From assembly GCA_021159105.1 (NCBI GenBank), contig JAGGSM010000064.1:1-49800 (forward strand): DNA of 49,800 nucleotides, read 5' to 3'. The stretch is from Candidatus Bipolaricaulota bacterium (GTDB lineage Bacteria > Bipolaricaulota > Bipolaricaulia > UBA7950 > UBA9294). Positions 35,372-49,195 of the stretch are shown here, piece after piece. The position numbers and the translations under genes were made by a program. The notes beneath the pieces are model-generated. The model was not told where the DNA came from. It searched no databases and saw nothing but the letters and a program-made list of their open reading frames with translations. Each line of letters begins with the position of its first letter. Within the stretch, counting starts at the first letter, position 1.

Positions 35372-37732
35372 CTACAGTTCCTCGTGAGCAGTGCGGGCAA
35401 TGATCTCGTCCTGCAGGCCCGGGCCGAGGTTGTTGAAGTAGTCGCTGTACCCAGCGACGCGTACGATCAGATCTCGATGCTCCTCCGGGTGAAGCTTGGC
35501 CTCGCGCAGCGTGTCAGCACCGACGACGTTGAACTGGATGTGGTGGCCATCGTAGCGGAAGTAGGTGCGAACGAGTGCCGCCAGCTTGTCGATCCCGGAG
35601 TCACCGGCGAGGACAGAGGGGAGAAACTTCTGGTTTAACAGCGTCCCGCCGGTACGGACGTGATCGATCTTCCCCATCGAGCGTACCACCGCGGTTGGGC
35701 CGTGCGTGTCCGCCCCTTGGCTTGGCGAGATCCCATCGGAGAGGGGCCTTCCCGCGATGCGCCCGTTCGCCGTCGCTCCTACCATCCTGCCGAAGTAGAT
35801 GTGGACCGTTGTCGGCAGGAGGTTCACCCGGTAGGAGCCGCCGTTTGTGTTCGGTCTACCGTCGATCGCTTCGAAGTAGGCGTCGAAAAGTTTGCGCGCA
35901 ATGTCGTCAGCGCGATCGTCGTCGTTTCCGAAGGCTGGCGATGCGGCGAGGCGCTTGCGCAGTCCCTCTTCGCCCTCGAAGTTGCTGTCGAGGACGCGTA
36001 CCAGATCGGGAAGCAAGATCCTTCCTTCATCAAAGACGTGGTATTTGATCGCTGACAGGGCGTCTGTCGTCGTCCCCAACCCGACCCCTTGAATGTAGGT
36101 CGTGGGATAGCGCGGTCCTCCGTCGTTGTAATCGCGTCCGCGCGCGATGCAATCATCGACGAGGAGCGATAGGAAGGGAGCGGGCATTTCCCCAGCGTAC
36201 AGCCGCTCTATGGTGTTGTTCCCGGCTATCTTCAGATCGACGAAGTACTGAAGCTGCCTGCGGTAGGCGGAGAACAGCTCATCGAAATCCTTAAACGTGC
36301 TTATGTCTCCGGTCTTGATCCCCACCATCTCTCCGGTGCGCGGATCGATCCCGTTGTGCAGCGTGATCTCCAGGATCTTCGGCCAGTTCATGTACCCGGT
36401 GAGGACGCAGCTCTCCTTGCCGAACGCGCTGATCGTCACGCACCCGCTCGGCCCGCCGTTTCGTGCGTCCTCGATGCTCTTTCCCGCGCGCAGGAATTCC
36501 TGCACGATGGCGTCGGTGTTGAAGATCGAGGGCTGACCGAAGCCCTTGCGTACGACGCGTAACGCTGATTTGAGGAAGCGGTTAGGGTTCTTCTTGCTCA
36601 GTTGGATGCAGGAGCCGCTGAACGGGAGGCGCATCTCGCTGATCACATCTAGTATAAGGTAGGAGACATCGTTCACCGCATCCTCGCCGTTTTCGGTCAG
36701 TCCACCGGCGTTCACGAGGACGAAGTCGTTGTACGTGGCGCTCTGCTCGACGGTAATCCCGACCTTAGGTGGGGCCGGCTGGTTGGAGAACTTAATCCAC
36801 AGGCACTCGAGCAGCTCCTTTGCCTGTTCGCGGGTGAGCGTCCCAGCAGCGATCTCGCGCTCGTAGAATGGATTTAGATGCTGATCGAGCCGCCCTGGGT
36901 TGAACGAATCCCAACTGTTCAGCTCGATCACCACCCCCAGGTGGACGAACCAGTACATCTGGATCGCCTCCCAGAAGCTGCGTGGAGCGTGCGCAGGTAC
37001 CCACAGGCATACTTCCGCTATCCTTTCCAGCTCCTCGCGCCGGTGGGGATCCTGTTCCCTTGTTGCCATCTCTCGGGCGAGATCGGCGTACCTGCGAGCG
37101 AGGTTGATCATCGCCTCGGCCGCGATCTTCATGGCGCGCAGCTCTTCGTCCTTGTCATAGGCGCGCGGATCGCTCTTCCAGTCTATTTGTGCGCGCACAC
37201 GCTTGATCTTATCGATGAAATCGAGCAGGCCGTGGTGATAGATCTTGTCGTCGAGTACGGCATGGCCAGGGGAGCGCTGTTCCATGAACTCGGTGAACAC
37301 CCCGGCATCGAACGCTTTGTGCCACTGCGGGCTCATTGCGGCAAACACCTTCTCTCGCATCGATCGCCCCTGCCAGAAAGGGATCACCTCTTCGGTCAAC
37401 GTTGTGAACGCGTCCTCGCTCACGGCAAACGGGGTGCGAGTGCGGGTGTCAAGCAAACGCAGATCTTCTGCGGAGTGGCTGCATAGTTCAGGGTAGGTCG
37501 GGGTCGCCTTGGGCGCTGGTCCGCGCTCCCCGACGATCAGCTCACCATCCCCGATGGAGATCGACTTGTTCGCCAGCAGGTATGAGAAGGCGAGCGCTCT
37601 TGTCACGGGAACAGAATGTCCCAATGCATCGGAACTGGAATAGAACTGGGTGATAAGGCTCGCCCGCTCGGCGCTCACCCGCGGGACGGCATCCCGACTC
37701 TCCTGCAACAACTGCTCGATACGCTCGTTCAT
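35372..37732 (-). CDS. glycyl-radical enzyme, PFL2/glycerol-dehydratase-like clade, unknown substrate
   Basis: 786 aa with C-terminal glycyl-radical motif VRVAGYSDYF. The Cys loop reads GGPSGCVTISAFG (Cys431; Thr433 where the dehydratase/lyase members have Glu). Confidence 0.9.
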   Translation of the reverse strand: MNERIEQLLQESRDAVPRVSAERASLITQFYSSSDALGHSVPVTRALAFSYLLANKSISIGDGELIVGERGPAPKATPTYPELCSHSAEDLRLLDTRTRTPFAVSEDAFTTLTEEVIPFWQGRSMREKVFAAMSPQWHKAFDAGVFTEFMEQRSPGHAVLDDKIYHHGLLDFIDKIKRVRAQIDWKSDPRAYDKDEELRAMKIAAEAMINLARRYADLAREMATREQDPHRREELERIAEVCLWVPAHAPRSFWEAIQMYWFVHLGVVIELNSWDSFNPGRLDQHLNPFYEREIAAGTLTREQAKELLECLWIKFSNQPAPPKVGITVEQSATYNDFVLVNAGGLTENGEDAVNDVSYLILDVISEMRLPFSGSCIQLSKKNPNRFLKSALRVVRKGFGQPSIFNTDAIVQEFLRAGKSIEDARNGGPSGCVTISAFGKESCVLTGYMNWPKILEITLHNGIDPRTGEMVGIKTGDISTFKDFDELFSAYRRQLQYFVDLKIAGNNTIERLYAGEMPAPFLSLLVDDCIARGRDYNDGGPRYPTTYIQGVGLGTTTDALSAIKYHVFDEGRILLPDLVRVLDSNFEGEEGLRKRLAASPAFGNDDDRADDIARKLFDAYFEAIDGRPNTNGGSYRVNLLPTTVHIYFGRMVGATANGRIAGRPLSDGISPSQGADTHGPTAVVRSMGKIDHVRTGGTLLNQKFLPSVLAGDSGIDKLAALVRTYFRYDGHHIQFNVVGADTLREAKLHPEEHRDLIVRVAGYSDYFNNLGPGLQDEIIARTAHEEL

Positions 37733-37735
37733 GCT

Positions 37736-38647
37736 CTAACCCCCTATTCGTACCGGGAGATCGATTCTCTCAGCGATGTAAGAAGCGGCTTCCTCTCCGG
37801 ACGGTTCTTCCGTCCGCGAAAAGTTGTACTCCCGCCCCAAGCGTGCGTATTTGCCCGCGCCGGCGCGATGATACGGCAGGACATTCACCCTTTCCACCGA
37901 CTTCAGGGATGTCACCAGAGCTATCAGATCCATGAGCGATCGCTCAACATCGTTCACCCCCGGTACGAGCGGGTACCTGATCCATATTCGCTTGCCCATC
38001 TCATCGATGCTGCGCAGATTGCGCAGGATGCTCCGGTTGGACACCCCTGTGTAGGCGATGTGAGCTGCGTCATCCAGCGTCTTGATATCGTACAGAAATA
38101 GATCGATCACATCAGCTACCTTCATCAGCTCCGCCTCGGGGGCAAACCCGCTCGTATCGAGCGCGGTGTGGATGTCCAACTCTACGCACCGGGCAGCTAC
38201 CGCGCGCACGAAGTCCGCCTGCATCAGCGGCTCCCCTCCGGAGAACGTCACTCCTCCGCCCGATTCCTCATAAAAGAGCGTATCCTTTACTATTTCTGAA
38301 ACGACCTGTTCGACGTTCATCTGTCGCCCGGTAAGCTCACGCGCGCCGTTTGGGCACACGGGGACACAATCGCCGCACCCGATGCAGAGGGATTGATCGA
38401 GCTGCAAGCGATCATCTACGATATCGAGTGCGCCCTGCTTGCAGGCAGACACGCATGCTCCGCACAGGGTGCAGCGCTCCTCGTAGTAGAGGATCTCCGG
38501 CCGCGCGCGCTGGCTCTCTGGATTGTGGCACCATTCACAGGAGAGGGGACAACCTTTTAGAAAGACTGTCGTGCGTATCCCCGGGCCGTCGTGGATCGCG
38601 TAGCGCTTTATGTCGAGGATTGTCCCCGTTCTCTCTTGTAGGCTCAC
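37736..38647 (-). CDS. glycyl-radical enzyme activating protein (radical SAM with two auxiliary ferredoxin-like clusters)
   Basis: CPLSCEWCHNP (CX3CX2C) plus CTLCGACVSAC and CIGCGDCVPVCP. Confidence 0.9.
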   Translation of the reverse strand: MSLQERTGTILDIKRYAIHDGPGIRTTVFLKGCPLSCEWCHNPESQRARPEILYYEERCTLCGACVSACKQGALDIVDDRLQLDQSLCIGCGDCVPVCPNGARELTGRQMNVEQVVSEIVKDTLFYEESGGGVTFSGGEPLMQADFVRAVAARCVELDIHTALDTSGFAPEAELMKVADVIDLFLYDIKTLDDAAHIAYTGVSNRSILRNLRSIDEMGKRIWIRYPLVPGVNDVERSLMDLIALVTSLKSVERVNVLPYHRAGAGKYARLGREYNFSRTEEPSGEEAASYIAERIDLPVRIGG

Positions 38648-39315: not shown

Positions 39316-39344
39316 GTCTAAAAACATCCGTTTCAAGGTATATT
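39316..39344 (+). promoter_or_regulatory. shared promoter-like motif, copy 1 (GTCTAAA-N16-TATATT)
   Basis: GTCTAAAAACATCCGTTTCAAGGTATATTATAGGTG. Near-identical to 40318-40346 and similar to 47216-47244 on the minus strand. Confidence 0.5.
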
Positions 39345-39486
39345 ATAGGTGTAGATCATTGACAAGTGAACCGAGAGGAAGATGGAAAGGAACCGAAGAC
39401 GGGGAACATCTGGGCCCCTCTTCAGATGACTATGAACAATACTTCAGCGGGCGGTCCGCTGAATGTAAGAAAATTCCTCATGAGAA

Positions 39487-39670
39487 GCATCTACTAAGAG
39501 CAAACCGCCCGAAAGGGCGGGACGCAAAGCTACGGACCTTCTGGACAACGCTCGCAAGGAGCATTGTGTAAAGGGCAAACCGGGAGCGATCCCGGGACGC
39601 AAAGCCACGGGTCTCATTGAGACAGCCGGGTTGCCGCAAGCAGTCTGATGGTGGCCGAGTTGCTGGATGC
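39487..39670 (+). promoter_or_regulatory. c-di-GMP-I (GEMM-I) riboswitch, outer aptamer of a nested tandem, copy 1
   Basis: 5' half GCAAACC-GCCC-GAAA-GGGC-GGGACGCAAAGCUACGGACC (39500-39538). 3' half GAUGGUGGCCGAGUUGCU (39647-39664). Closing helix GCAUCUA/UGGAUGC. Encloses the inner aptamer. Confidence 0.62.
39573..39635 (+). promoter_or_regulatory. c-di-GMP-I (GEMM-I) riboswitch, inner complete aptamer, copy 1
   Basis: GGGCAAACC GGGA-GCGA-UCCC GGGACGCAAAGCC ACGG GUCUC-AUU-GAGAC AGCCGGGUUGCC. Matches the GEMM-I core (GCAAAC, GNRA hairpin, GGACGCAAAGCC, GCCGGGUUnCC) as recalled from Vc2/RF01051. Confidence 0.85.
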
Positions 39671-39699
39671 ACTCAAGAAACCATTGGGAGGTGTTCTTA

Positions 39700-40161
39700 A
39701 TGAGGAGCAGTAGAGTGATGGTAGGCCTGTTGGTGTTGAGCTTGGTGGTTGGGATGATTGGACTGGCTGGTATTGCTAAGCCAGGGAAACCACTGCCGCT
39801 GGGCCCGCGCCCATTGCCGCCGGAGATGTCTAACAGCGTTACTGATATGGTTTCATGGACTGTTCAGGGGTTCATCGAACTGACGATCGATGATAGTGCG
39901 TTCGACTTTGGACTGATCGATGCTGGAGTTGACTCCGTGACCGTAGAAGAGGCGAACACACTGGCTGTCGTAAGCAACACGGAGTGGACGCTGAGCTACA
40001 CGATCACGGGAACTGGCAGCGATCACCTGGGGGTCCTGCTCTCTGACGAAGCAGGAGAAGGGAACGCCGAAATCAACGTCGGCTACAGCCTGAATGACCT
40101 CCGTTCGATGGACCCGGGTAGCTACACTGCTACGGTTACCTACACAGTAGCGGCCAAGTAA
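39700..40161 (+). CDS. small secreted beta-sandwich protein, WxL-like/pilin-like (paralog 1)
   Basis: 153 aa from ATG 39700 (GGGAGGTG, 6-nt spacer), plus a signal peptide. Motifs are IELTIDDSAFDFGLID, VVSNTEWTLSYT and C-terminal PGSYTATVTYTVAAK. Confidence 0.8.
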   Translation: MRSSRVMVGLLVLSLVVGMIGLAGIAKPGKPLPLGPRPLPPEMSNSVTDMVSWTVQGFIELTIDDSAFDFGLIDAGVDSVTVEEANTLAVVSNTEWTLSYTITGTGSDHLGVLLSDEAGEGNAEINVGYSLNDLRSMDPGSYTATVTYTVAAK

Positions 40162-40317: not shown

Positions 40318-40346
40318 GTCTAAAAGTATCCGTTTCAAGGTATACT
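40318..40346 (+). promoter_or_regulatory. shared promoter-like motif, copy 2 (GTCTAAA-N16-TATACT)
   Basis: GTCTAAAAGTATCCGTTTCAAGGTATACTATAAGTG. Same 23-nt register as copy 1. Confidence 0.5.
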
Positions 40347-40499
40347 ATAAGTGTAGGTCATTGACAAGTGAACCGAGAGGAAAAGGAAGATGGATTGTCG
40401 AAAGGCGAGCAGACTGAGAAGCAGCTCGCCTGACGGCATGAGAAGGATCGAAAGATTGCAGTGGACGGTCCACTGCAAGTACTAGATATCCTCGGAGAA

Positions 40500-40688
40500 G
40501 CATCTACTAAAAGCAAACCGCCTGAAAGGGTGGGACGCAAAGCTACGGACCTTCTAGACAACGCTCGCAAGGGCATTGTGTACAAGGGCAAACCGGGAGC
40601 GATCCCGGGACGCAAAGCCACGGGCCTCTTGTATCAGAGGCAGCCGGGTTGCCGCAGGCAGTCTAATGGTGGCCGAGTCGCTAGATGC
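40500..40688 (+). promoter_or_regulatory. c-di-GMP-I riboswitch, outer aptamer of nested tandem, copy 2
   Basis: GCAAACC-GCCU-GAAA-GGGU-GGGACGCAAAGCUACGGACC (40513-40551), then AAUGGUGGCCGAGUCGCU (40665-40682). Closing helix GCAUCUA/UAGAUGC is 7 Watson-Crick bp. Confidence 0.62.
40586..40653 (+). promoter_or_regulatory. c-di-GMP-I riboswitch, inner complete aptamer, copy 2
   Basis: GGGCAAACC GGGA-GCGA-UCCC GGGACGCAAAGCC ACGG GCCUCU-UGUAUC-AGAGGC AGCCGGGUUGCC. The distal P3 helix differs from copy 1 but stays complementary. Confidence 0.85.
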
Positions 40689-40717
40689 ACTCAAAAAACC
40701 ATTGGGAGGTGCTTTCA

Positions 40718-41158
40718 ATGAGGATAAACAAGTTTATGGTAGGCATGTTGGTGTTGGGTTTGGCAGTGAGCGTTCTAGGCGCAGTCGCTTTGGCGACGCC
40801 CGGACACGGGAATGGCTACCACGCTTCAGATACGGCAGTAGACAACGTCTCGTGGACGATCCAGGGGTTCATTGAACTCACGATCGATAACGGCGCGTTT
40901 GATTTTGGTGAGATCGCTGCCGGTGTGGACTCCGTGAGCGAAAGAAACGCGAATACGCTGCATGTATTCAGCAACACAGCGTGGAAGCTCTCTTACTCCG
41001 TAACTGGAGCAGGAAGCGATCACCTGAGTGTGGCCATGTCTTCAGACGAAGGTGAAGGTAACGACGACATAACCGTCGGCTACAGCTTGAATAACCTTCG
41101 AATGATGCATCCTGATACGTACACGGCAACAGTCGTCTACACCGTCGCTGCCAAGTGA
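40718..41158 (+). CDS. small secreted beta-sandwich protein, WxL-like/pilin-like (paralog 2)
   Basis: 146 aa from ATG 40718 (GGGAGGTG RBS), plus a signal peptide. Motifs are IELTIDNGAFDFGEIA, VFSNTAWKLSYS and PDTYTATVVYTVAAK. Confidence 0.8.
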   Translation: MRINKFMVGMLVLGLAVSVLGAVALATPGHGNGYHASDTAVDNVSWTIQGFIELTIDNGAFDFGEIAAGVDSVSERNANTLHVFSNTAWKLSYSVTGAGSDHLSVAMSSDEGEGNDDITVGYSLNNLRMMHPDTYTATVVYTVAAK

Positions 41159-41447: not shown

Positions 41448-42512
41448 ATGATGCTAAGAGAGATGAGGTCTTCGGGCATTCACCTGATCGTTCTCTTCGT
41501 TATCGTGATCCTCTCGGTCAGCCTCCTGCAGGTCATCGGAGAGGCGGTGGTTATATCGAAGAGCCTCCTGCGCTTTGATGCTCAACCGGGGGCCAATGAG
41601 GAGACCCTGCTTACGGTTGAGAACAACGAGGGAAGCGACATCCGTGTCAGGGTCCGACTCATCGACTGGGATGATACCCCGGATGGGCGAACTCTCCTCT
41701 TTTCTCCGGATACCATTGAACGCTCCTGTTCCTCCTGGATAGAGTATGCTCCGCAGGCGTTCAATCTGCGCCCTGGACAGAAGCAGGAGGTACACGTGAC
41801 GATCCGTGTCCCCTCTTCAGCCGTGGGAACGTACTGGGCGGCTCTGCTCGTTGATAAGCCCGCCCAGCCAGACGCCCCGCCCGAGGGCGGGATTCGCGCC
41901 AAGACCCAGTTCTTGATAAAGATCTATCAGACATCCCTTCCAGCATCAACCACCGGGAAGATAGCAAGCGTTGTTGTCCGTGGGCTGGATCCGCTCTGGG
42001 TGACACTTCAGTTCGCCAACACAGGAGAGACCCTGATGGAGGACGTCAGCGCCACGGCTACTCTGCAGGATCGCACCGGACAGACGCTTGGTGAGCTCTC
42101 ATCTGATCCATTTTCCGTCCTGCCGGGCCACACGGTGGATGTTGCATTGGCAAGTTCACTTTACATGCAGGTTCCGGGAGTGTACCTCGTCACAGCGGTC
42201 GCCGACTATGGGGCCGATTACCTCGTTGCCGGCCAGGTCGCTCTGCGGATAAAGCAACTATCTCTCTCACCGATAGGGGGAAGCCTCAACACTCCAACAG
42301 ACCTCGATGGAGATGGCCTGTATGAAGACATAGACGGCGATGGAAGGCTCACGGAAGCGGACCTGTCTCTGTACACGAGCAACCTCGATGATAGGTGCAT
42401 AACGCGAAACAAACGCGCGTTTGACTATGACAACGACGGCGAGATAACACAGGACGATGTGGGCCTGTTACAGGCAATGCTATCACGCCAACAGGAGCGC
42501 GCCGGAAGGTGA
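41448..42512 (+). CDS. secreted two-Ig-domain, chaperone-like protein (DUF916/DUF3324-like) with C-terminal dockerin-type repeats
   Basis: Signal/TM segment. LLRFDAQPGANEETLLTVENNEGSDIRVRVRLIDW... is followed by a second beta domain. The C-terminus (nt about 42300-42485) has DLDGDGLYEDIDGDGRLTEADLSLY and DYDNDGEITQDDVGLLQAML, a duplicated Ca-binding loop plus helix as in type-I dockerins. Confidence 0.72.
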   Translation: MMLREMRSSGIHLIVLFVIVILSVSLLQVIGEAVVISKSLLRFDAQPGANEETLLTVENNEGSDIRVRVRLIDWDDTPDGRTLLFSPDTIERSCSSWIEYAPQAFNLRPGQKQEVHVTIRVPSSAVGTYWAALLVDKPAQPDAPPEGGIRAKTQFLIKIYQTSLPASTTGKIASVVVRGLDPLWVTLQFANTGETLMEDVSATATLQDRTGQTLGELSSDPFSVLPGHTVDVALASSLYMQVPGVYLVTAVADYGADYLVAGQVALRIKQLSLSPIGGSLNTPTDLDGDGLYEDIDGDGRLTEADLSLYTSNLDDRCITRNKRAFDYDNDGEITQDDVGLLQAMLSRQQERAGR

Positions 42513-42632: not shown

Positions 42633-43958
42633 TCAACCCGGATCATCTTCGCCAGCAGGCTGTATGCTGCTCAGGATATCCTTCAAACTAGGTGCTTCCT
42701 GCCCATTCCAACCGTCAGCTCTGACAGATATGGTGAAGTCAAGGCCCATCTCCGCATTGAGATTGGCCACTTGATCGCTCAGTCGCTTTGAGGCCACCTG
42801 TGCTCCGGCAAGCGGTGTCTCCGGCAGCAGCGCCACGAACCGTTGCTCGCTCACACGAAATACTGGATCAACCGATCGGAGCTTCGCAATGAGGAGGTTC
42901 GCTGTCGCCTGCAGGAGACGTTTCTTATTCTCTTCAGAGGTTCCCTCGCCCGGAGATATGTCTACGATCAGGACCGAAGTTGGATGCCCGTAGCGTGCTC
43001 CCTTCTTCAACTCCTGATCAAGGAGCCTTTGGAAGTAGGAGAACGTGTAAGTGCCCGTCTCTTCGTCGAGCATAACTACGTCCCGCAGTGCCTGTTCGCG
43101 CGATCCGATCACCTTTATCATCAGGTTGAAGACATCGATGAACCGCGCCATCTCGTCACGTACCTTCAGCCCTGCTTGCCTGACCGGCCCAGTCGATACC
43201 TGCACACCGTAGTTCCTCTGTGAGACACTCTCCGCCGCTGCTGCCAGCCTAAGGATCGGCCGGGTGACGATGAGGCTCACGATCCCGTAGATGAGGAAGC
43301 CGAGAACGAGGAATCCGATAACAGATGCCAGCCCAAGCTCTAGTGAGAGGTGATTGACGTAGCGTTGCTGTTCGGCAAGGGACATGTCCACCGAGACTAC
43401 CCCGACCAGATCTGCATCCATGAATAGAGGATAGTCTGCGCGCAGGTATGCTTCTCCCCCTACCCGAACCTGCCTTACCCGCACATCCCGCAGGGCGAGC
43501 AAGGCGCCCTGCGCTTCTTGTGAAAGGATCTTGCCAATCAGTGACGAGTCCGTGCTAGCGACAACTCGCAGCCCCCTGCCGGTCACTCCGCTGACCGTTA
43601 TGCCGACGATAGAGTCGTATCGTGTCATCAGGGTATTGATGTCTTGTTCCAGTTGGTCGGAGTAGTACAGTATATATGCCTTCTCCTGAAGCGACTTGGA
43701 GACGACGCTTGCCACGCTGCGGGCACGCTGCTCGTAGATCCCAGCGATGGTGGTGTGAAGCGATGTGAGCGACAACCAGGCTAGGATGCCGATAACTGAG
43801 AGTGTGATCACGAAGACAGGAACAAGAATCTTGATCTTCAGGGGGGATCGATAGTAGATGTTCGATGACAGGGTCATCAAGCCTCTCTTCAACCGGTGCT
43901 TGATCCTTGCCAGGTATCCCTGCTCTTCCGCTCTCTTGTCCTCAACATTCTCGGACAT
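42633..43958 (-). CDS. membrane sensor protein: extracytoplasmic domain, HAMP, degenerate GGDEF domain with intact RxxD I-site
   Basis: Two TM segments flank a domain of about 150 aa, followed by HAMP-like RPILRLAAAAESVSQ...FIDVFNLMI. The GGDEF position reads SEQRF, and RSVD lies exactly 5 residues upstream (KLRSVDPVFRVSEQRF, nt 42837-42878). DxLT...NRR is replaced by DEETGTYTFSYF. Start at ATG 43956-43958 behind GGAGGG. Confidence 0.8.
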   Translation of the reverse strand: MSENVEDKRAEEQGYLARIKHRLKRGLMTLSSNIYYRSPLKIKILVPVFVITLSVIGILAWLSLTSLHTTIAGIYEQRARSVASVVSKSLQEKAYILYYSDQLEQDINTLMTRYDSIVGITVSGVTGRGLRVVASTDSSLIGKILSQEAQGALLALRDVRVRQVRVGGEAYLRADYPLFMDADLVGVVSVDMSLAEQQRYVNHLSLELGLASVIGFLVLGFLIYGIVSLIVTRPILRLAAAAESVSQRNYGVQVSTGPVRQAGLKVRDEMARFIDVFNLMIKVIGSREQALRDVVMLDEETGTYTFSYFQRLLDQELKKGARYGHPTSVLIVDISPGEGTSEENKKRLLQATANLLIAKLRSVDPVFRVSEQRFVALLPETPLAGAQVASKRLSDQVANLNAEMGLDFTISVRADGWNGQEAPSLKDILSSIQPAGEDDPG

Positions 43959-43972
43959 TGCTACCAACCCTC

Positions 43973-46450
43973 CTATTGAGCCATCAATCCTTGCTGCACC
44001 ATGAACTGCCTGGCAGCCGCCGCTGGATCGCTGTGTAATAACCGTACCCTACTTACCAGGGAATGTACATTATCCGATGTGAGAAGGGGGCGAAGCTCCT
44101 CTTCAATAGCTCGCACTCCAGGGTGTGCATCGATCACGCTCTGGCGCGTGAAGAAGGTTATCTGCCGGGCAGTCAATGCTCCCTGATCATCGTTGAGTGC
44201 CTGGTATCCCACAATCGTAACTGCCTCTTGCAAGCTATGTACAATCGCTGCATCGACTGTCCCCAACTTCAGTGCGGTCTCTGACTCATCGATCCCGTTG
44301 GTCCAGACTACGTTATCCTCTTCGAGTGTTATCCCATATGTCGATGCGAGTGCTGCAACGCTGGCATGAGGGATCTCCCGCTCTACAGCTAGCTTCACGC
44401 TTCTCTGATCACCTGTGAGGTAGATGGCCAGGTTGGAGATTGTCGTTCCAGATAGATGGGTAGCTATCTCCGGGGATACGACAAGCAGGAGCGTATCTTC
44501 TGCTGGAAGAAGGCTGGAGGCGCTTATCCCTGTGTCCGATAGCTCTTTCACATCGAACAGATCGGCCTTCCCAACAGCGACATCGATATCGCCAGCGATG
44601 AGGGCATCCTTCACCTGTTCCTCGCTTTCGAGTCCGATTAGGTCGATCACTCTCATCCCCTCACTCGTTAATCCGAGCTGGAGGAGGCGAGCGATCATGA
44701 CTTGGTCGAGGGAGCTCGTTGCACCGAGGGCAACCGATGCCTTCCAAGACGACCTGGGGAGCACGACCTGGCCTACAATGCGGGAAGGGTCCTCTTCTTC
44801 TGCGCCGTTCCAGTAGTTTCCTTCCGCATAGATTGTCCTATCCGATGAGTTTGATATGTCGTATCTCTTGTTGCCGGAGAAGGAGTTCTTAGCTAGCGTA
44901 AGGGAGAAGCCCTGTTCCGCCCCGGCCAGAAGTTCGGAGTCGCTTCCTCGCAAGATCGTCTCTTGCTTGTCCAGTTTTGAGGAGATCTCCAGCCCAGTGG
45001 AGTTGTATGAGATAGTATTGCCTTCAAGCCTTGTGCCGGTCCCGGACTCGAACAGCCTTAGGGCAATCTCGCTGTGGCTGATGCGGTTGTCCAGAAGTGC
45101 GGTCTGTGATGAAGAGGCGATCAGTACTCCGACCTTGTTGTCCTTGAGAGTGTTGTCTTGAATGTGATTCTTGTCGGCATGATTGAGCAGACACAAGCCC
45201 TGTTCCGAGCTATTGGTCATGCTATTGCGCAGCAGTTGGTTATCGCTTGCTCCAATCAATGCCACTGCGTATGCGCTCCCAGCAGTGACATTGTCGAGGA
45301 GCAGATTCCGCGACCCGGCTGACAAGACAATTCCCGCCAGTGCGTTCTCCTTAAGCGAGTTGCGTAATACCCTATTTCTCGCACCTTCCAGGATCTGGAG
45401 CCCGATCGCGTTCTTCTCCAGGTCATTGGCAAGGATCAGGCTCGACTTAACCCCTTCCAGTGTGAGGGCTGTGCCTTGGCACGTGCTGACGAAGTTGTGC
45501 GTAATGCTGTTATCTTGGCACGCAGAGAGCGAAATCCCATCCCTGAGGCCGTCTTGCACGCTGTTTTCGGATATGGCGTTCTGTGGTGACTTGTACAGTG
45601 AGATCGCGTACTTGGCGCTCCTCCTGATTGAGTTATGCTCTATCCTGTTGTTGGAGGCAGTGTTCAGCAGAATGCCGGTTGCGCAGTCGGTGAACCTGCC
45701 CCCTGTAATGAGGTTCGAAGAGGAACTAAGAATCTCCAGACCGATTTCGCTGCAACTGATCGCGGTAAGCGTGGCGATCTCGTTCTCTTGTGAATCGTCT
45801 TCGATCGAGACTCCGACCCCAACCCCGTCCACGCTGATATCCTCGATCGTGTTGGACCAGGCGGAGGAGAGACGTACGCCAACTGCCGCGTCCTTTCCGA
45901 TGTGGATTTGCTGCAGCCTGTTTCGATTGGCGCTCATCATCTCTATTCCCGTCTTGCATCCGCCGATGACGATCGAGGTGATCACGCTACCGTTGGATTC
46001 GCTCGCCTGTATCCCGACGCGCGCTCCTTCGATAACAAGATCATCAAGACTGGCATTGACTGAGTGCAGCAATTGCACCCCGATGCCGTCTGCTTCGATC
46101 CTGAAACCACGTAACTCGATCCCCGTGGCATGAATTGTCACTGCCGGCTCACCGGTGGGACAGACAATCTTGGCTCGCCCGCCGGACGATATGATCGTTA
46201 CATTTGAAGCATCGATATGAATTGGCCCTTCGTACGGACCGCCTCTCGCTTGAACGACAATCGTCGAACCACCGGCGACTTGATCCAGAGCCGCTTGGAT
46301 CGTCGGGTAGTCCCTCGGCACGACTATCTGTGAAGAAGGAGCAGGTCTACTGACCAAGAAAAACCATGTAAGGGCGCAGGCCGCAAGGACTGCTACTCCT
46401 CCAATTCCCAGCACAAAGTGCCAACTTCCAGGCAGTTTCCTTGACCTCAT
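43973..46450 (-). CDS. membrane-anchored parallel beta-helix (NosD/PbH1-like) repeat protein fused to a C-terminal OpuAC-like solute-binding domain
   Basis: 825 aa with an N-terminal TM segment. About 20 repeats of roughly 22 aa (N..I..N.I....GI.L) span residues about 45-545. The last 255 aa or so (nt 43976 to about 44749) resemble glycine-betaine-type periplasmic binding domains (ALIAGDIDVAVG..., TVDAAIVHS...). Confidence 0.78.
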   Translation of the reverse strand: MRSRKLPGSWHFVLGIGGVAVLAACALTWFFLVSRPAPSSQIVVPRDYPTIQAALDQVAGGSTIVVQARGGPYEGPIHIDASNVTIISSGGRAKIVCPTGEPAVTIHATGIELRGFRIEADGIGVQLLHSVNASLDDLVIEGARVGIQASESNGSVITSIVIGGCKTGIEMMSANRNRLQQIHIGKDAAVGVRLSSAWSNTIEDISVDGVGVGVSIEDDSQENEIATLTAISCSEIGLEILSSSSNLITGGRFTDCATGILLNTASNNRIEHNSIRRSAKYAISLYKSPQNAISENSVQDGLRDGISLSACQDNSITHNFVSTCQGTALTLEGVKSSLILANDLEKNAIGLQILEGARNRVLRNSLKENALAGIVLSAGSRNLLLDNVTAGSAYAVALIGASDNQLLRNSMTNSSEQGLCLLNHADKNHIQDNTLKDNKVGVLIASSSQTALLDNRISHSEIALRLFESGTGTRLEGNTISYNSTGLEISSKLDKQETILRGSDSELLAGAEQGFSLTLAKNSFSGNKRYDISNSSDRTIYAEGNYWNGAEEEDPSRIVGQVVLPRSSWKASVALGATSSLDQVMIARLLQLGLTSEGMRVIDLIGLESEEQVKDALIAGDIDVAVGKADLFDVKELSDTGISASSLLPAEDTLLLVVSPEIATHLSGTTISNLAIYLTGDQRSVKLAVEREIPHASVAALASTYGITLEEDNVVWTNGIDESETALKLGTVDAAIVHSLQEAVTIVGYQALNDDQGALTARQITFFTRQSVIDAHPGVRAIEEELRPLLTSDNVHSLVSRVRLLHSDPAAAARQFMVQQGLMAQ

Positions 46451-47379: not shown

Positions 47380-47407
47380 TTGACATGGCGCGCATGAGAA
47401 GTATAAT
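47380..47407 (+). promoter_or_regulatory. near-consensus sigma70-type promoter of the third riboswitch unit
   Basis: TTGACA (47380-47385), 16-nt spacer, TATAAT (47402-47407), followed by the same TATAGGTGTA as copy 1. Confidence 0.65.
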
Positions 47408-47502
47408 ATAGGTGTAAAAAGTGGCAGATGGTAAAAATAAGGGAGGTGGTAGGTGGAGTGAAGATTATGTAAACTGTACGAAGTAGTATGTTGCCTCTCA
47501 CA

Positions 47503-47676
47503 AGCATTGAAGGGCAACCCGCACGAAAGGGCGGGGCGCAAAGCTACGGCCTGCAAAGGTATGGACGAAAGGGCAAACCGGGAGCGATCCCGGGGCGCAA
47601 AGCCTTGAGTCTTCTTTTATTAGAAGATCGTCAGGCTGCCGTGGCGTACCTAATGGTGGCAGAGCTACAAGATGCT
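47503..47676 (+). promoter_or_regulatory. c-di-GMP-I riboswitch, outer aptamer of nested tandem, copy 3 (divergent)
   Basis: GGGCAACCC-GCAC-GAAA-GGGC-GGGGCGCAAAGCUACGGCC (47511-47551), then AAUGGUGGCAGAGCUAC (47652-47668). Closing helix is AGCAUU/GAUGCU. Confidence 0.55.
47571..47640 (+). promoter_or_regulatory. c-di-GMP-I riboswitch, inner complete aptamer, copy 3
   Basis: GGGCAAACC GGGA-GCGA-UCCC GGGGCGCAAAGCC UUGA GUCUUCU-UUUAUU-AGAAGAU CGUCAGGCUGCC. Confidence 0.8.
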
Positions 47677-47708
47677 CATGAAATAAAGACCATTAGGAGG
47701 TGCTTAAC

Positions 47709-48206
47709 ATGAAGAGGCTTTTTATATCGATTTTGGTAGTAGCGGTGGCAGTGAGTGTGGGTGTTGCGGTTTGGGCCAGCAATCCACAGGATGTACGGGT
47801 GAACTGGCACACCAATAGTTGGATTATCCTCTACGTGCCCGACCAGAGTATCGAGCTGGGTACGATTGACGGTAGCCAGTACAATCCGGCGAGCGAGACC
47901 TGGACGCCGATTACCGATGGGAGCGATCACAGCGCGTACGTGATAACGAACAACGCCGCTGGCTTCACGCTTTCGGTGTCTGCCGCAAACGCTGCTGGGT
48001 ATGTAGCAGCTGATCTGTCTCGTTTCCAGATGGTTGGTGGGAATCTCGGAACGTGGACTGGTAACCTCAATAACACTCAGATCCTGAGCGGTTCGAGTGT
48101 TGGTGTCGGGAGAGCAACCAACATCAACTACCAGTACGTTCCAAGCTGGGACGATGCTGCTGGTGACTATCGCGTGATCGTCACCTACACGGCGACCGCA
48201 CAATAG
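47709..48206 (+). CDS. small secreted beta-sandwich protein, WxL-like/pilin-like (paralog 3)
   Basis: 165 aa from ATG 47709 (AGGAGGTG, 6-nt spacer), plus a signal peptide. Motifs are SIELGTIDGSQY, ITNNAAGFTLSVS and AGDYRVIVTYTATAQ. Confidence 0.78.
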   Translation: MKRLFISILVVAVAVSVGVAVWASNPQDVRVNWHTNSWIILYVPDQSIELGTIDGSQYNPASETWTPITDGSDHSAYVITNNAAGFTLSVSAANAAGYVAADLSRFQMVGGNLGTWTGNLNNTQILSGSSVGVGRATNINYQYVPSWDDAAGDYRVIVTYTATAQ

Positions 48207-48232: not shown

Positions 48233-49195
48233 ATGGCCGCTCCACATTCCAAAATGTCCATCAAAGCTGTTCTTCTTTTCCTTCTCGTCTTCCTTCTGGC
48301 CAGTCTGGGCGCCATCGCCAAAACGAGCTGCAACAGTTGGTGGACGGACGAAACCTGCCTCACCGTGCATCCTGATGTCGATCTGGGGACCATCGACTCA
48401 TCCCTTTTTCATGGTGCCACACCCGAAGGGAGCGGCGCATTACAGCCGCTCACGGCGCTGGACAACGCAATTGACATTACGCGCAATGGTTGGGCGAGCC
48501 TGAACTGGACCCTTGAGGTCAAGGCGGCATCGAGCTTGGGGGTGGCCCTTTCGCGCCTGCACTGGAGACACAGTGGAACAGGAGAAGGATACCTGCCGTT
48601 CTCATCGCTCGGCGCTTGGACGCAAGTGGCGACTGGGAGGGGGTCGGCATCTGTCCCAGTGGACTATGAGTACTTGCCGACAACTGCGGATGCTCCTGGG
48701 AACCATCAAGTTACCCTCACCTATCGTGTCACGATCTCATGGGGATCCTATGAGTTGTATTCTGTCAGTGAGGACACGGTGTTGTTCCTCAATGCACGTG
48801 ACTGGATTGTCCTTGCCATTAACGATCGCATCGATCTTGGCACGATCGATGGCGCCGGTTATGTGATGGGAAGGGGGCTTCCGGCGCGTGACAGTGTTGG
48901 CAATGGCATGTTCATCGTCAGCAATTTGACTACGGGCTGGGATGTCACGCTTCAGGTAGGATCGCTATCAACCCCACCGTGCTACAGAGGGGATCTGTTG
49001 AGAGTCTTCTTCTGGCAGATAGACGGCTCGACGTTCCGTTCGGCGAGCGGGCTGCAGGCGCAGCCCATCACTGTGGCTTCAAGCAGTGCGCCAGGGAAGG
49101 TGCAGCACACGCTCGGCTACCGCTACACTCCAACGACTGCTGAATGCGGAGGAGATTATTCCATATCTTTGATCTACACGGCAACGCCGCGCTAG
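48233..49195 (+). CDS. secreted protein with two tandem copies of the same WxL-like/pilin-like domain (paralog 4)
   Basis: 320 aa with a signal peptide. Domain 1 has DVDLGTIDSSLF, LNWTLEVK and PGNHQVTLTYRVTIS. Domain 2 has RIDLGTIDGAGY, TTGWDVTLQV and GGDYSISLIYTATPR. Confidence 0.75.
   Translation: MAAPHSKMSIKAVLLFLLVFLLASLGAIAKTSCNSWWTDETCLTVHPDVDLGTIDSSLFHGATPEGSGALQPLTALDNAIDITRNGWASLNWTLEVKAASSLGVALSRLHWRHSGTGEGYLPFSSLGAWTQVATGRGSASVPVDYEYLPTTADAPGNHQVTLTYRVTISWGSYELYSVSEDTVLFLNARDWIVLAINDRIDLGTIDGAGYVMGRGLPARDSVGNGMFIVSNLTTGWDVTLQVGSLSTPPCYRGDLLRVFFWQIDGSTFRSASGLQAQPITVASSSAPGKVQHTLGYRYTPTTAECGGDYSISLIYTATPR

What the first reader, a model, noticed from the sequence alone, without database searches (positions are those of the whole stretch)
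39487..39670. Tandem c-di-GMP-I riboswitch in which the second aptamer appears to sit inside P3 of the first (copy 1)
As RNA, 39497-39538 reads AGAGCAAACC GCCC-GAAA-GGGC GGGACGCAAAGC UACGGACC. That is the 5' half of a GEMM-I aptamer: GCAAAC, a GNRA-capped hairpin, and the GGACGCAAAGC core. P3 does not close locally. Instead there is a small GNRA hairpin (39547-39569) and then a complete second aptamer at 39573-39635. Only after that comes GAUGGUGGCCGAGUUGCU (39647-39664). This resembles the canonical 3' half (Vc2 UAGGUAGCGGGGUUACC, from memory). It can pair with the first 5' half as C39530-G39659, U31-A58, C33-G57, G34-C56, G35-C55, C37-G54 and C38-G53, with A32 and A36 bulged. The helix extends as CUGGAC (39541-46) / GUCUG (39643-47). 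CAA (39501-03) pairs with UUG (39660-62), and GCAUCUA (39487-93) / UGGAUGC (39664-70) closes the element. By alignment to Vc2 G20/C92, the ligand-reading positions are G39500/C39663 (outer) and G39575/C39634 (inner). That argues for c-di-GMP rather than 3'3'-cGAMP. The tandem GEMM-I arrangements I know of are side by side, and I am not aware of a nested one.
Basis: partly seen in the sequence, partly recalled or inferred. Interest (0 to 1): 0.85.

Follow-up and report, generated by a model that had tools for sequence, protein, structure and literature searches.

The report
Nested double c-di-GMP riboswitch
Three mRNA leaders in this Bipolaricaulota contig carry one complete c-di-GMP-sensing RNA fold inserted into a stem of a second one, sharing a single translation switch; I found no published description of this architecture, which could give a sharper or two-signal response.

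Summary
At 39487-39670, and again at 40500-40688 and 47503-47676, a complete GEMM-I (c-di-GMP-I) aptamer sits inside the distal P3 of a second GEMM-I aptamer. The halves of the outer aptamer lie about 100 nt apart. About 100 distinct homologs exist, all from Bipolaricaulota/Acetothermia-type contigs. In 74 of them the long-range outer helices are 91% paired (24-37% when slid), and 7 of 22 pairs covary. A covariance model built only from spliced outer halves finds ordinary contiguous GEMM-I aptamers end to end in unrelated bacteria.

One expression platform serves both aptamers. The outer P1 5' strand and the outer P3 3' strand each pair with the Shine-Dalgarno region. Ligand-dependent folding should therefore free the ribosome site, making this a translational ON switch. 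The regulated genes encode small secreted beta-sandwich proteins that weakly resemble fibre subunits.

- The G20-equivalent positions are 39499 and 39574, not 39500 and 39575.
- Position 39499 is A. The outer aptamer of copies 1 and 2 therefore carries the c-GAMP/bispecific signature, not G.
- The proposed CAA/UUG pairing is wrong.

I found no description of a nested arrangement in the searchable literature. Verdict: a new architectural variant of a known riboswitch class. Ligand binding and cooperativity are untested.

The parts
39475..39480 (+). Leader strand UCCUCA (P0 5'). It pairs with UGAGGA at 39701-39706, which overlaps the start codon.
   Evidence: About 91% of cells paired across 74 sequences, with CG->UA changes at one pair. 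RNAduplex of leader plus P1 5' strand against the SD..AUG region gives a mean of -22 kcal/mol, z -4.4, and z below -2 in 68 of 74.
39484..39491 (+). Anti-SD strand 1 (GAAGCAUC). It pairs with GGUGUUCU at 39690-39697 and overlaps the outer P1 5' strand, so the two pairings are mutually exclusive.
   Evidence: 97.1% paired, three pairs with changes on both sides. RNAalifold recovers this helix without guidance. It is present in the MFE folds of copies 1 and 2.
39487..39493 (+). Outer aptamer P1, 5' strand (GCAUCUA). It pairs with 39664-39670.
   Evidence: 97.4% paired. Covariation UA->CG in 8 sequences and AU->UA in 7.
39499..39499 (+). Outer aptamer G20-equivalent ligand contact. It is A here.
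   Evidence: Rfam alignment and Vc2 G21-C46 numbering. The column is G in 67 and A in 7 of 74 sequences.
39500..39525 (+). Outer aptamer P2 with GAAA tetraloop (39511-39514) and the conserved AAA and GAC bulges.
   Evidence: RF01051 match. All six upper pairs covary. The loop is GAAA in 72 of 74.
39526..39538 (+). Outer A47-equivalent (39526) and the P3 5' strand (39528-39538).
   Evidence: A is invariant in 74 of 74. P3 is 89% paired with 39650-39661.
39542..39546 (+). Outer P3 distal extension (P3b), 5' strand. It pairs with 39643-39647.
   Evidence: Four of 5 pairs show changes on both sides.
39550..39562 (+). Junction hairpin (GCUC-GCAA-G-GAGC). It forms a three-way junction with P3b and the inner P1, and is absent from copy 3.
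   Evidence: The sequence varies while pairing is kept; UA->CG in 9 sequences.
39564..39639 (+). Complete inner GEMM-I aptamer. P1 is 39564-68/39635-39. The G20-equivalent is G39574. P2 is 39575-39600 with a GCGA loop. The A47-equivalent is A39601. P3 is 39603-39632. The C92-equivalent is C39634.
   Evidence: Rfam 72.7 bits, E 2e-15. P2 and P3 covary strongly. Contact positions are G 74/74, A 74/74 and C 72/74.
39643..39661 (+). Outer P3b 3' strand (39643-47) and outer P3 3' strand (39650-61). 39645-39652 (CUGAUGGU) doubles as anti-SD strand 2.
   Evidence: The same CUCCUAAUGGU/ACCAUUAGGAG pairing forms the expression platform of a single-aptamer relative at L224:3724-3798.
39663..39670 (+). 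Outer C92-equivalent (C39663) and the P1 3' strand (39664-39670).
   Evidence: C in 73 of 74. P1 counts.
39680..39702 (+). Expression platform target. ACCAUUGG (39680-87) pairs with anti-SD strand 2. The SD is GGGAGGU (39686-92). GGUGUUCU (39690-97) pairs with anti-SD strand 1. The start codon is 39700-02.
   Evidence: P(unpaired) of the SD bases is 0-0.08 at all but one position (0.40) in the free ensemble. It is 0.4-0.97 when the nested fold is enforced.
39700..40161 (+). Regulated ORF. It encodes a 153-aa secreted protein, a member of a Bipolaricaulota-specific family.
   Evidence: The AF2 model of the copy-2 paralog has pLDDT 83 and is a beta-sandwich. Foldseek gives only weak hits to TasA-like, PapG-pilin and Caf1 subunits.
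40489..40724 (+). Copy 2 of the whole device. Outer P1 is 40500-06/40682-88. The outer G20-equivalent is A40512. Rfam places the inner aptamer at 40578-40657 (structural inner P1 40576-80/40653-57). The SD is 40704-10 and the ATG 40718.
47493..47718 (+). Copy 3, the variant without the junction hairpin. Outer P1 is 47503-08/47671-76. The outer G20-equivalent is G47513. P3b is 47557-63/47645-51 and runs on into the inner P1. The inner aptamer is 47563-47644. The SD is 47695-701 and the ATG 47709.
   Evidence: A perfect TTGACA-16-TATAAT promoter lies at 47380-47407.

Best explanation
Each of the three leaders is a nested tandem GEMM-I (c-di-GMP-I) riboswitch with one expression platform. The outer aptamer has a normal P1, a P2 with a GAAA loop, and the ligand-pocket nucleotides. 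Its P3 is interrupted beyond the tetraloop-receptor region by a complete second aptamer, whose loop is GYGA or GYAA and never GAAA. The inner P1 joins the outer P3 extension, either through a three-way junction (copies 1 and 2) or as a direct continuation of it (copy 3).

Without ligand, two strands of the outer aptamer are used elsewhere. The leader plus the P1 5' strand (UCCUCA..GAAGCAUC) pairs with GGUGYUUY..AUGAGGA. The P3 3' strand (CUGAUGGU here; consensus CUAAUGGU) pairs with ACCAUURG. Together they bury the Shine-Dalgarno sequence and the start codon.

The following steps are inferred. Ligand binding in the inner aptamer fixes its P1 and thereby the outer P3b/P3. Ligand binding in the outer aptamer fixes P1. 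Both anti-SD strands are then withdrawn and translation of a small secreted protein, possibly a matrix or fibre subunit, switches on. Because outer folding depends on inner folding, the two sites should act cooperatively or as an AND gate.

What is shown: the architecture, its conservation and covariation, the conserved ligand-contact bases, and the competing pairings. What is inferred: ligand binding, the ON direction, and coupling between the sites.
For: Architecture:
- Rfam finds complete inner aptamers, and finds the outer 5' half only by deleting P3.
- 74 distinct homologs are 91.8% paired on the full nested structure, against 32-42% when slid, with 32 covarying pairs.
- The long-range outer helices alone are 90.7% paired, against 24-37% when slid, with 7 covarying pairs and 0 of 500 shuffles reaching any measure.
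- Model R1, built only from spliced outer halves, matches contiguous GEMM-I aptamers over model positions 1-96 in Lachnospiraceae and Clostridiales contigs (L001 52.8 bits, L101 48.7, L091 45.0). It also spans a 136-nt insert in a nested element that was not in its training set (L224:2447-2674, 60.5 bits, E 8e-18).

Ligand pocket: A47-equivalent 74/74, C92-equivalent 73/74 and 72/74, G20-equivalent G or A in the outer and G in the inner aptamer.

Orthogonal tetraloops: outer GAAA in 72 of 74; inner GYGA or GYAA in 74 of 74.

Expression platform:
- Competing helices are 97% and 87% paired, with covariation.
- The duplex averages -22 kcal/mol with z -4.4.
- The MFE is the sequestered state, and the SD opens when the nested fold is enforced.
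- There is no credible terminator inside the elements.
- A single-aptamer relative uses the same CUCCUAAUGGU/ACCAUUAGGAG platform.
Against: There are no binding or expression data. The outer P3 core is nearly invariant, with only 1 of 10 pairs covarying; its first pair is A.C in 50 of 74 sequences. RNAalifold without guidance recovers the anti-SD helix, both P2 helices and the inner P3, but not the outer P1 or P3.

Nearest-neighbour energies put the best fold that contains the nested helices about 19 kcal/mol above the sequestered MFE. Tertiary contacts and ligand binding must supply that difference. The leader/start-codon helix P0 can persist in both states, so the start codon may stay partly paired when the switch is ON.

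Swapped P3 pairings (outer 5' with inner 3', and the reverse) are only slightly worse than cognate ones: 8.1 against 8.9-9.4 of 10 pairs. Other topologies therefore cannot be excluded. Coupling between the two sites is inference only.
Confidence: 0.7

Rival explanations
1. Hetero-ligand version. In copies 1 and 2 the outer aptamer (A at the G20 position) senses 3'3'-cGAMP, or both dinucleotides. The inner aptamer (G) senses c-di-GMP. The device would then be a two-input gate rather than a cooperative sensor of one ligand.
For: A39499 and A40512 align with G20. GEMM-Ib c-GAMP riboswitches carry A there, and the Vc2 G20A mutant binds both ligands at 53 and 120 nM (PMC6140456). The A variant is confined to one paralog lineage, 7 of 74 sequences, which points to a selected change rather than noise.
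Against: A at this position is not sufficient for c-GAMP selectivity; G20A is bispecific. No c-GAMP synthase was looked for or seen. The only GGDEF-like protein in the window is degenerate, with SEQRF in place of GGDEF. Sixty-seven of 74 family members have G in both sites.
Confidence: 0.15
2. Only one site is functional. The outer 'aptamer' is a structural scaffold or relic that positions the anti-SD strands, or the inner aptamer is a passive, well-folded cap on P3. The response is then an ordinary one-ligand response.
For: The outer P3 core shows little covariation. Rfam scores the outer 5' half only just above threshold (37.1 against 35). In the crystallised Vc2 RNA, as I recall, the P3 loop tolerated replacement, so an insert there need not have a function.
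Against: Every ligand-contact position is conserved in both aptamers across 74 diverged sequences. A relic would decay at those positions. The spliced-outer model scores canonical aptamers at 45-54 bits over its full length. Both aptamers keep their own tetraloop type.
Confidence: 0.1
3. Strand-swapped or multi-state switch. Because the two aptamers are homologous, the outer 5' half can pair with the inner 3' half, or the inner 5' half with the outer 3' half. This would give alternative single-aptamer folds that form part of the regulatory cycle.
For: Swapped P3 registers keep 8.1 of 10 pairs on average. Model R1 produces a full-length alignment at 40571-40690 that joins the inner 5' half to the outer 3' half (47 bits). 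RNAalifold proposes UGCCG (alignment columns 307-311) with UGGUG (342-346).
Against: Cognate pairings are better (8.9-9.4 of 10), and the mismatches fall at fixed positions that look like discrimination. The tetraloop types differ between the two aptamers. No covariation specific to swapped pairs was found.
Confidence: 0.05

Closest known systems
c-di-GMP-I (GEMM-I) riboswitch aptamer, Rfam RF01051, e.g. Vibrio cholerae Vc2
   Same: Both aptamers have the P1/P2/P3 three-helix fold. They share the GCAAAC...GACGCAAAGC core, a GNRA loop on P2, and the bulged P3 with ...GCCGRGYYGC at its 3' side. They also have the A47- and C92-equivalent bases.
   Different: The outer copy is split by a whole second aptamer of 76-190 nt in its P3. 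The outer G20-equivalent is A in copies 1 and 2.
Side-by-side tandem c-di-GMP-I riboswitches (Bacillus thuringiensis Bc3-5 triple tandem; 347 doublets and 12 triplets in Sherlock et al. 2022, PMC9481103)
   Same: Several aptamers of the same class lie in one leader, and the expected result is a steeper response.
   Different: In that review the aptamers lie one after another and are listed under multiple expression platforms. Here they are nested and share one SD-sequestering platform, with no terminator between them. Side-by-side examples found here (L001, L033, L116, L224:1646-1832) close P3 locally.
Tandem glycine riboswitch (two aptamers, one expression platform)
   Same: Two homologous aptamers act through one expression platform, and coupling between the sites is expected.
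   Different: The glycine aptamers are adjacent and communicate through inter-domain tertiary contacts (from memory). Here one aptamer lies topologically inside a helix of the other, so coupling would go through helix stabilisation.
c-AMP-GMP (3'3'-cGAMP, GEMM-Ib) riboswitches, e.g. Geobacter Gs1761
   Same: A at the G20-equivalent position in the outer aptamer of copies 1 and 2.
   Different: Different phylum and different regulated genes. The selectivity determinants beyond A20 were not examined, and most family members have G.
Engineered allosteric ribozymes with two aptamers in series (Jose, Soukup and Breaker 2001; recalled from memory, not checked here)
   Same: One aptamer closes the stem that a second ligand-dependent module needs. 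Binding is then cooperative and depends on both effectors.
   Different: Those constructs are synthetic, use two different aptamers, and drive a hammerhead ribozyme. This element is natural, uses homologous aptamers, and drives SD accessibility.
c-di-GMP-I-GGC variant, Rfam RF03167
   Same: It is the best-scoring Rfam model for the three inner aptamers (72.7, 63.6 and 60.6 bits) and for many relatives.
   Different: The model consensus has G where RF01051 has the first A of GCAAAG, the A47 position. All 74 inner and 74 outer aptamers have A there. The label reflects overall sequence similarity, not the variant pocket.

Membership tests
c-di-GMP-I riboswitch aptamer (RF01051 / clan CL00126): inner aptamer | Covariance-model score above the curated threshold over the full model | tested here: met
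   39565-39639 scores 72.7 bits, 40578-40657 scores 63.6 and 47563-47644 scores 60.6 against RF03167, in each case over model positions 1-80 of 80. Lower-scoring matches from the same clan were suppressed.
c-di-GMP-I riboswitch aptamer: inner aptamer | Ligand-contact bases G20, A47 and C92 | tested here: met
   G39574, A39601 and C39634. The columns are G 74/74, A 74/74 and C 72/74. Numbering was checked against Vc2 G21-C46.
c-di-GMP-I riboswitch aptamer: outer aptamer | Full-length match to a GEMM-I covariance model | tested here: inconclusive
   As it stands in the genome, only the 5' half matches (RF01051 37.1 bits against a threshold of 35, with 33 P3 positions deleted). A spliced sequence cannot be given to the Rfam tool. 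The reciprocal test is positive: model R1, built from spliced outer halves, matches canonical aptamers at positions 1-96 with 45-54 bits and spans the insert in L224.
c-di-GMP-I riboswitch aptamer: outer aptamer | P1, P2 and P3 helices supported by comparative data | tested here: met
   P1 is 97.4% paired with 2 covarying pairs. In P2, 6 of 6 upper pairs covary. P3 is 89% paired but mostly invariant. In P3b, 4 of 5 pairs covary.
c-di-GMP-I riboswitch aptamer: outer aptamer | G at position 20 (Hoogsteen reader of one guanine of the ligand) | tested here: not met
   A39499 (copy 1) and A40512 (copy 2). The feature is met in copy 3 (G47513) and in 67 of 74 family members.
c-di-GMP-I riboswitch aptamer: outer aptamer | A47 and C92 equivalents | tested here: met
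   A39526 (74/74) and C39663 (73/74).
c-di-GMP-I riboswitch (either aptamer) | Binds c-di-GMP and changes gene expression | not testable with these tools
   This needs in-line probing, ITC or reporter assays.
c-di-GMP-I-GGC variant (RF03167) | G at the A47 position (model consensus GACGCGAAG) | tested here: not met
   All aptamers read GCAAAG. The alignment shows a mismatch at that model position, and one search gives A in 74/74 for both aptamers.
c-AMP-GMP (GEMM-Ib) riboswitch | A at position 20 | tested here: met
   This applies only to the outer aptamer of copies 1 and 2, and to 7 of 74 family members.
c-AMP-GMP (GEMM-Ib) riboswitch | Selective binding of 3'3'-cGAMP, and a cGAMP synthase in the organism | not tested
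   The only GGDEF-like protein in the window is degenerate. The rest of the genome was not available.
Pseudo-cooperative tandem riboswitches (independent units) | Each aptamer has its own expression platform | tested here: not met
   There is no credible terminator or second SD-sequestering element between the aptamers. The inner aptamer lies inside the outer P3.
Dual-aptamer riboswitch with one expression platform (glycine-type) | Two aptamers and a single expression platform | tested here: met
   One SD/AUG-sequestering platform is built from outer-aptamer strands.
Dual-aptamer riboswitch with one expression platform (glycine-type) | Cooperative or mutually dependent ligand binding | not testable with these tools
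   This is inferred from the topology only.

The most novel reading that the evidence does not exclude
A natural riboswitch in which one aptamer is nested in a helix of another. Ligand binding in the inner site would be a precondition for folding of the outer site. The result would be true cooperative (Hill coefficient above 1) or AND-type control through a single expression platform. In the A20 sub-lineage (window copies 1 and 2), the device could integrate two different cyclic dinucleotides.
Probability: 0.45. Interest if true: 0.85.

Novelty: new variant of a known kind. Interest (0 to 1): 0.72.

Why it matters
All tandem riboswitch architectures described in the literature I could search place the aptamers side by side. 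A nested arrangement couples two binding sites through helix stability alone. That principle was used in engineered allosteric RNAs, but I could not find a natural example reported.

If the two sites are coupled, this offers a simple and evolvable route to switch-like responses to c-di-GMP. It would also give a compact design for synthetic two-input RNA devices.

The case also exposes a blind spot in standard annotation. Covariance-model scans report one complete aptamer plus a marginal half-hit. Nested elements are therefore undercounted, and here they are mislabelled as the 'GGC' variant.

Finally, it links c-di-GMP signalling in the uncultivated phylum Bipolaricaulota to a family of small secreted proteins that may be fibre subunits.

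Tried and rejected
1. A self-contained outer aptamer: rejected. Rfam reaches its threshold only by deleting P3, and no local partner for GCUACGG exists.
2. Filing the inner aptamer as c-di-GMP-I-GGC: rejected. The defining G is an A.
3. Transcription attenuation: rejected. No credible intrinsic terminator lies in or after the elements. The one hit, at 47591-47607, lies in the inner aptamer core.
4. Unguided consensus folding: RNAalifold did not return the outer P1 or P3 and gave the anti-SD helix instead. Single-sequence MFE folds likewise give the sequestered state.
5. Strict orthogonality of the two P3 helices: only partial.
6. Naming the regulated proteins: Pfam and NCBIfam gave nothing above threshold. 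The PDB sequence search gave nothing. All homologs are 'hypothetical'. The fold search gave only weak fibre-subunit-like hits with E of 0.005 or higher.
7. The window's GGDEF protein as a clue to the ligand: its motif is degenerate.
8. Literature:
- Searches for nested, embedded or inserted aptamers, and for Bipolaricaulota/Acetothermia with riboswitch, found nothing relevant.
- The 2022 tandem-riboswitch review contains no mention of 'nested'.
- Weinberg et al. 2017 (PNAS), which defined the GGC variant, and Nelson et al. 2015 could not be read. A remark there on nested context cannot be excluded.
9. Scanning a spliced outer sequence directly against Rfam is not possible with these tools. I replaced it with the reciprocal model test.
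Full report
**What is in the sequence.** Rfam at gathering thresholds finds four matches in the window. Three are complete aptamers: 39565-39639 (72.7 bits), 40578-40657 (63.6) and 47563-47644 (60.6), best matched by RF03167. The fourth is a marginal RF01051 match at 39489-39545 (37.1 bits, threshold 35). That match covers the 5' half well. It deletes 33 model positions of P3 and keeps a four-pair 'P3' with two non-standard pairs. The upstream half-aptamer therefore has no local 3' half. All three loci have the same layout: 5' half, complete aptamer, then AUGGUGGC(C/A)GAG...GAUGC, followed about 15 nt later by ACCAUURGGAGGUG and an ATG.

**Is it real and conserved?**
- A pattern scan of one genome per species returned the arrangement in MAGs labelled Bipolaricaulota or Acetothermia, and in some labelled Thermotogae or Neomarinimicrobiota. 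Several contigs carry two or three copies, like the window.
In all I collected 124 instances and about 100 distinct sequences.
- The window itself is a Candidatus Bipolaricaulota contig. The copy-1 protein is recorded as J7J63_02060 on a 49,800-nt contig.
- Tight side-by-side tandems from Lachnospiraceae and Clostridiales turned up in the same scan. They close P3 locally and serve as contrasts.

**Comparative structure.** I aligned 74 distinct elements (A1) and counted pairs for a structure transferred from copy 1.
- The full nested structure has 65 pairs. It is 91.8% paired, against 32-42% when the 3' partners are slid. Thirty-two pairs show changes on both sides, and 0 of 500 shuffles reach any measure.
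- The three helices that define nesting were then tested alone. Together they are 90.7% paired, against 24-37% when slid. Seven of 22 pairs and 36 cells show changes on both sides, against 3.5 pairs and 8.3 cells in shuffles.
- Outer P1 is 97.4% paired, with UA->CG in 8 sequences and AU->UA in 7. In P3b, 4 of 5 pairs covary.
- The outer P3 core is 89% paired but almost invariant, so it is supported by conservation and homology rather than covariation.
- The hairpin-less subtypes (copy 3, and the L034 and L005 types) keep the P3b and inner P1 helices with different sequences. Examples are AGGUAUG/CGUACCU, GGCUGC/GCAGCC and GGGUG/CACCU.

**Reciprocal model test.** A spliced sequence cannot be given to Rfam. 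I therefore built a covariance model (R1) from 20 spliced outer halves, using a GAAA cap in place of the insert.
- R1 matches ordinary contiguous GEMM-I aptamers over model positions 1-96 in unrelated bacteria: L001 52.8 bits, L101 48.7, L091 45.0 and L090 45.0.
- It also matches single aptamers of the same clade (L177 54.1 bits).
- On its own it bridges a 136-nt insert in a nested element of a subtype absent from its training set (L224:2447-2674, 60.5 bits, E 8e-18).
- The two outer halves together are therefore a bona fide GEMM-I aptamer by sequence and structure.

In Vc2, G21-C46 and C22-G45 form the base of the helix that carries the tetraloop, and C92 pairs with the ligand (PMC11705072). 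G20 is the base just 5' of the GC of GCAAAC. This agrees with the Rfam alignment.
- The equivalents are A39499, A39526 and C39663 in the outer aptamer. In the inner aptamer they are G39574, A39601 and C39634.
- Across 74 sequences the outer G20 column is G in 67 and A in 7. The inner is always G. A47 is always A. C92 is C in 73 and 72.
- Window copies 1 and 2 belong to the A lineage; copy 3 has G.
- A at this position is the mark of c-GAMP or bispecific GEMM-Ib RNAs. The Vc2 G20A mutant binds c-di-GMP at 53 nM and c-GAMP at 120 nM (PMC6140456).
- The proposed CAA(39501-03)/UUG(39660-62) pairing conflicts with the family structure.
- The distal P3 register that fits the consensus has G39653 and G39654 bulged.
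- The RF03167 'GGC' label is misleading here. Its consensus has G at the A47 position, and every aptamer in this family has A.

**Features that keep the two aptamers apart.** The outer tetraloop is GAAA in 72 of 74. The inner loop is GCGA, GUGA, GUAA or GCAA in 74 of 74 and is never GAAA. Swapped P3 pairings retain 8.1 of 10 pairs, against 8.9-9.4 for cognate pairings. The losses fall at fixed positions. This is partial, not strict, orthogonality.

**Expression platform.** Two outer-aptamer strands have alternative partners around the ribosome site.
- GAAGCAUC (39484-91) overlaps the P1 5' strand and pairs with GGUGUUCU (39690-97). This helix is 97.1% paired, with three covarying pairs.
- CUGAUGGU (39645-52) overlaps the P3b and P3 3' strands and pairs with ACCAUUGG (39680-87). 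This helix is 87.3% paired, with two covarying pairs.
- A leader segment, UCCUCA (39475-80), pairs with UGAGGA over the start codon. Other subtypes show different but complementary sequences, such as GCCUCU/AGAGGC, CUCAUGG/CCAUGAG and UUCUUCA/UGAAGAA.
- The duplex of leader plus P1 5' strand with the SD..AUG region averages -22 kcal/mol. Its z-score is -4.4 against shuffled leaders, and z is below -2 in 68 of 74.
- For copies 1 and 2 the MFE fold is this sequestered state; copy 3 shows it only in part. In copy 1 the SD bases have P(unpaired) of 0-0.08 at all but one position (0.40) in the free ensemble. They have 0.4-0.97 when the nested fold is enforced.
- RNAalifold without guidance returns the anti-SD helix.
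- No credible terminator is present.
- A single-aptamer relative uses CUCCUAAUGGU/ACCAUUAGGAG as its platform, with the P1 3' strand overlapping the anti-SD strand (L224:3724-3798). That supports the reading that ligand-driven folding frees the SD, which makes this an ON switch. The direction and the coupling remain inferred.

**Proposed mechanism.** Apo state: both anti-SD strands are engaged and the SD and AUG are buried. Holo state: the inner aptamer fixes its P1, which is joined to the outer P3b. In copies 1 and 2 the join is a three-way junction with the 39550-62 hairpin; in copy 3 P3b runs directly into the inner P1. This favours the outer P3 over alt-2. The outer pocket then fixes P1 over alt-1. 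Both events are needed to free the SD fully, so I expect cooperative or AND-like behaviour. Nearest-neighbour energies put the best fold that contains the nested helices about 19 kcal/mol above the sequestered MFE. This is a rough figure that tertiary contacts and ligand binding would have to cover.

**Regulated genes and context.**
- Each element precedes a 146-165-aa protein with a signal peptide.
- Homologs are all unnamed and lack Pfam domains. Pfam and NCBIfam give nothing above threshold.
- An AlphaFold model of the copy-2 protein (pLDDT 83) is a beta-sandwich with a disordered N-terminus.
- Foldseek gives only weak matches (E of 0.005 or higher, TM 0.4-0.5). These are to TasA-like TLP-1a, the PapG pilin domain, Caf1 and Csu subunits.
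- 'Fibre or matrix subunit' is therefore a tentative reading, though it fits a c-di-GMP ON switch.
- Copy 3 has a perfect TTGACA-16-TATAAT promoter at 47380-47407. All three copies share a TATAATATAGGTGTA-like box.

**Comparison with what is known.** The 2022 review of tandem riboswitches lists 347 doublet and 12 triplet c-di-GMP-I arrangements under multiple expression platforms. The word 'nested' does not occur in it (PMC9481103). Full-text searches for nested, embedded or inserted aptamers, and for Bipolaricaulota or Acetothermia with riboswitch, found nothing relevant. The paper that defined the GGC variant could not be read. I therefore cannot exclude a remark there. The closest functional analogues are the tandem glycine riboswitch and engineered series-aptamer allosteric ribozymes; the latter comparison is from memory.

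**Verdict.** The ligand assignment needs correction. The element is a new architectural variant of a known riboswitch class, found in at least about 100 versions in one candidate phylum. Binding, direction of control and cooperativity remain to be tested.

Noticed in passing
L177:281-355, L223:9582-9656(-), L133:873-948(-), L224:1646-1832, L224:3724-3798, L054:4792-4874: The same clade also has ordinary single GEMM-I riboswitches and a side-by-side tandem. It has a single aptamer with the same CUCCUAAUGGU/ACCAUUAGGAG anti-SD platform. In L054 a third, single aptamer lies about 85 nt upstream of a nested pair in what looks like the same leader. Rfam files all of these under RF03167 although they carry A at the A47 position.
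   Followed up: partly
window 39443-39463 and 40458-40480; also L054 upstream of its nested element: A conserved perfect hairpin (UUCAGCGG-gcggu-CCGCUGAA; UUGCAGUGGAC-g-GUCCACUGCAA) sits 10-25 nt 5' of the leader strand of copies 1 and 2. Its stem sequence differs between copies while pairing is kept. No U-tract follows it. Its function is unknown.
   Followed up: no
window 39340-39354, 40341-40355, 47403-47417; 47380-47407: A shared TATAATATAGGTGTA-like box lies upstream of all three copies. Copy 3 has a perfect TTGACA-16-TATAAT promoter. Relatives show TGTCTAA-N17-(T/C)ATAA(T/C). This implies that each copy has its own promoter and a leader of 250-350 nt.
   Followed up: partly
L074, L037, L094, L128, L134, L136 (inner P3 loop; alignment A1 columns 173-292): Many homologs carry 50-155-nt insertions in the terminal loop of the inner P3. 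The insertions share recurring GGGUUCAUUGAGUUGAAC-like motifs. The window copies have short loops. The insertions may be a mobile mini-element or a further structured domain.
   Followed up: no
window 42633-43967 (-): This is a membrane sensor with an sCache domain and a degenerate GGDEF domain (SEQRF where GGDEF/GGEEF is expected). It is more likely a c-di-GMP receptor or an inactive relative than a cyclase. It lies between the riboswitch-controlled genes.
   Followed up: partly
window 41448-42512 (+) and 48233-49195 (+): Larger ORFs follow the copy-2 and copy-3 genes. The first has a C-terminal dockerin type I domain (E 1.8e-5). The second has no family match. They may be co-transcribed partners of the small secreted proteins.
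   Followed up: no
window 35372-38647 (-) and 43973-46450 (-): A glycyl-radical enzyme (PFL-like, E 2e-216) lies next to its radical-SAM activase. Separately there is an 825-aa protein that fuses a right-handed beta-helix/NosD region to an OpuAC substrate-binding domain.
   Followed up: no
A1 columns 307-311 with 342-346 (window 39632-39636 with 39649-39653): RNAalifold proposes a helix between UGCCG at the inner aptamer's 3' junction, which includes the C92-equivalent, and UGGUG in the outer P3 3' strand. It shows only one-sided changes. It could be an apo-state pairing or an artefact of two conserved G/U-rich strings.
   Followed up: no
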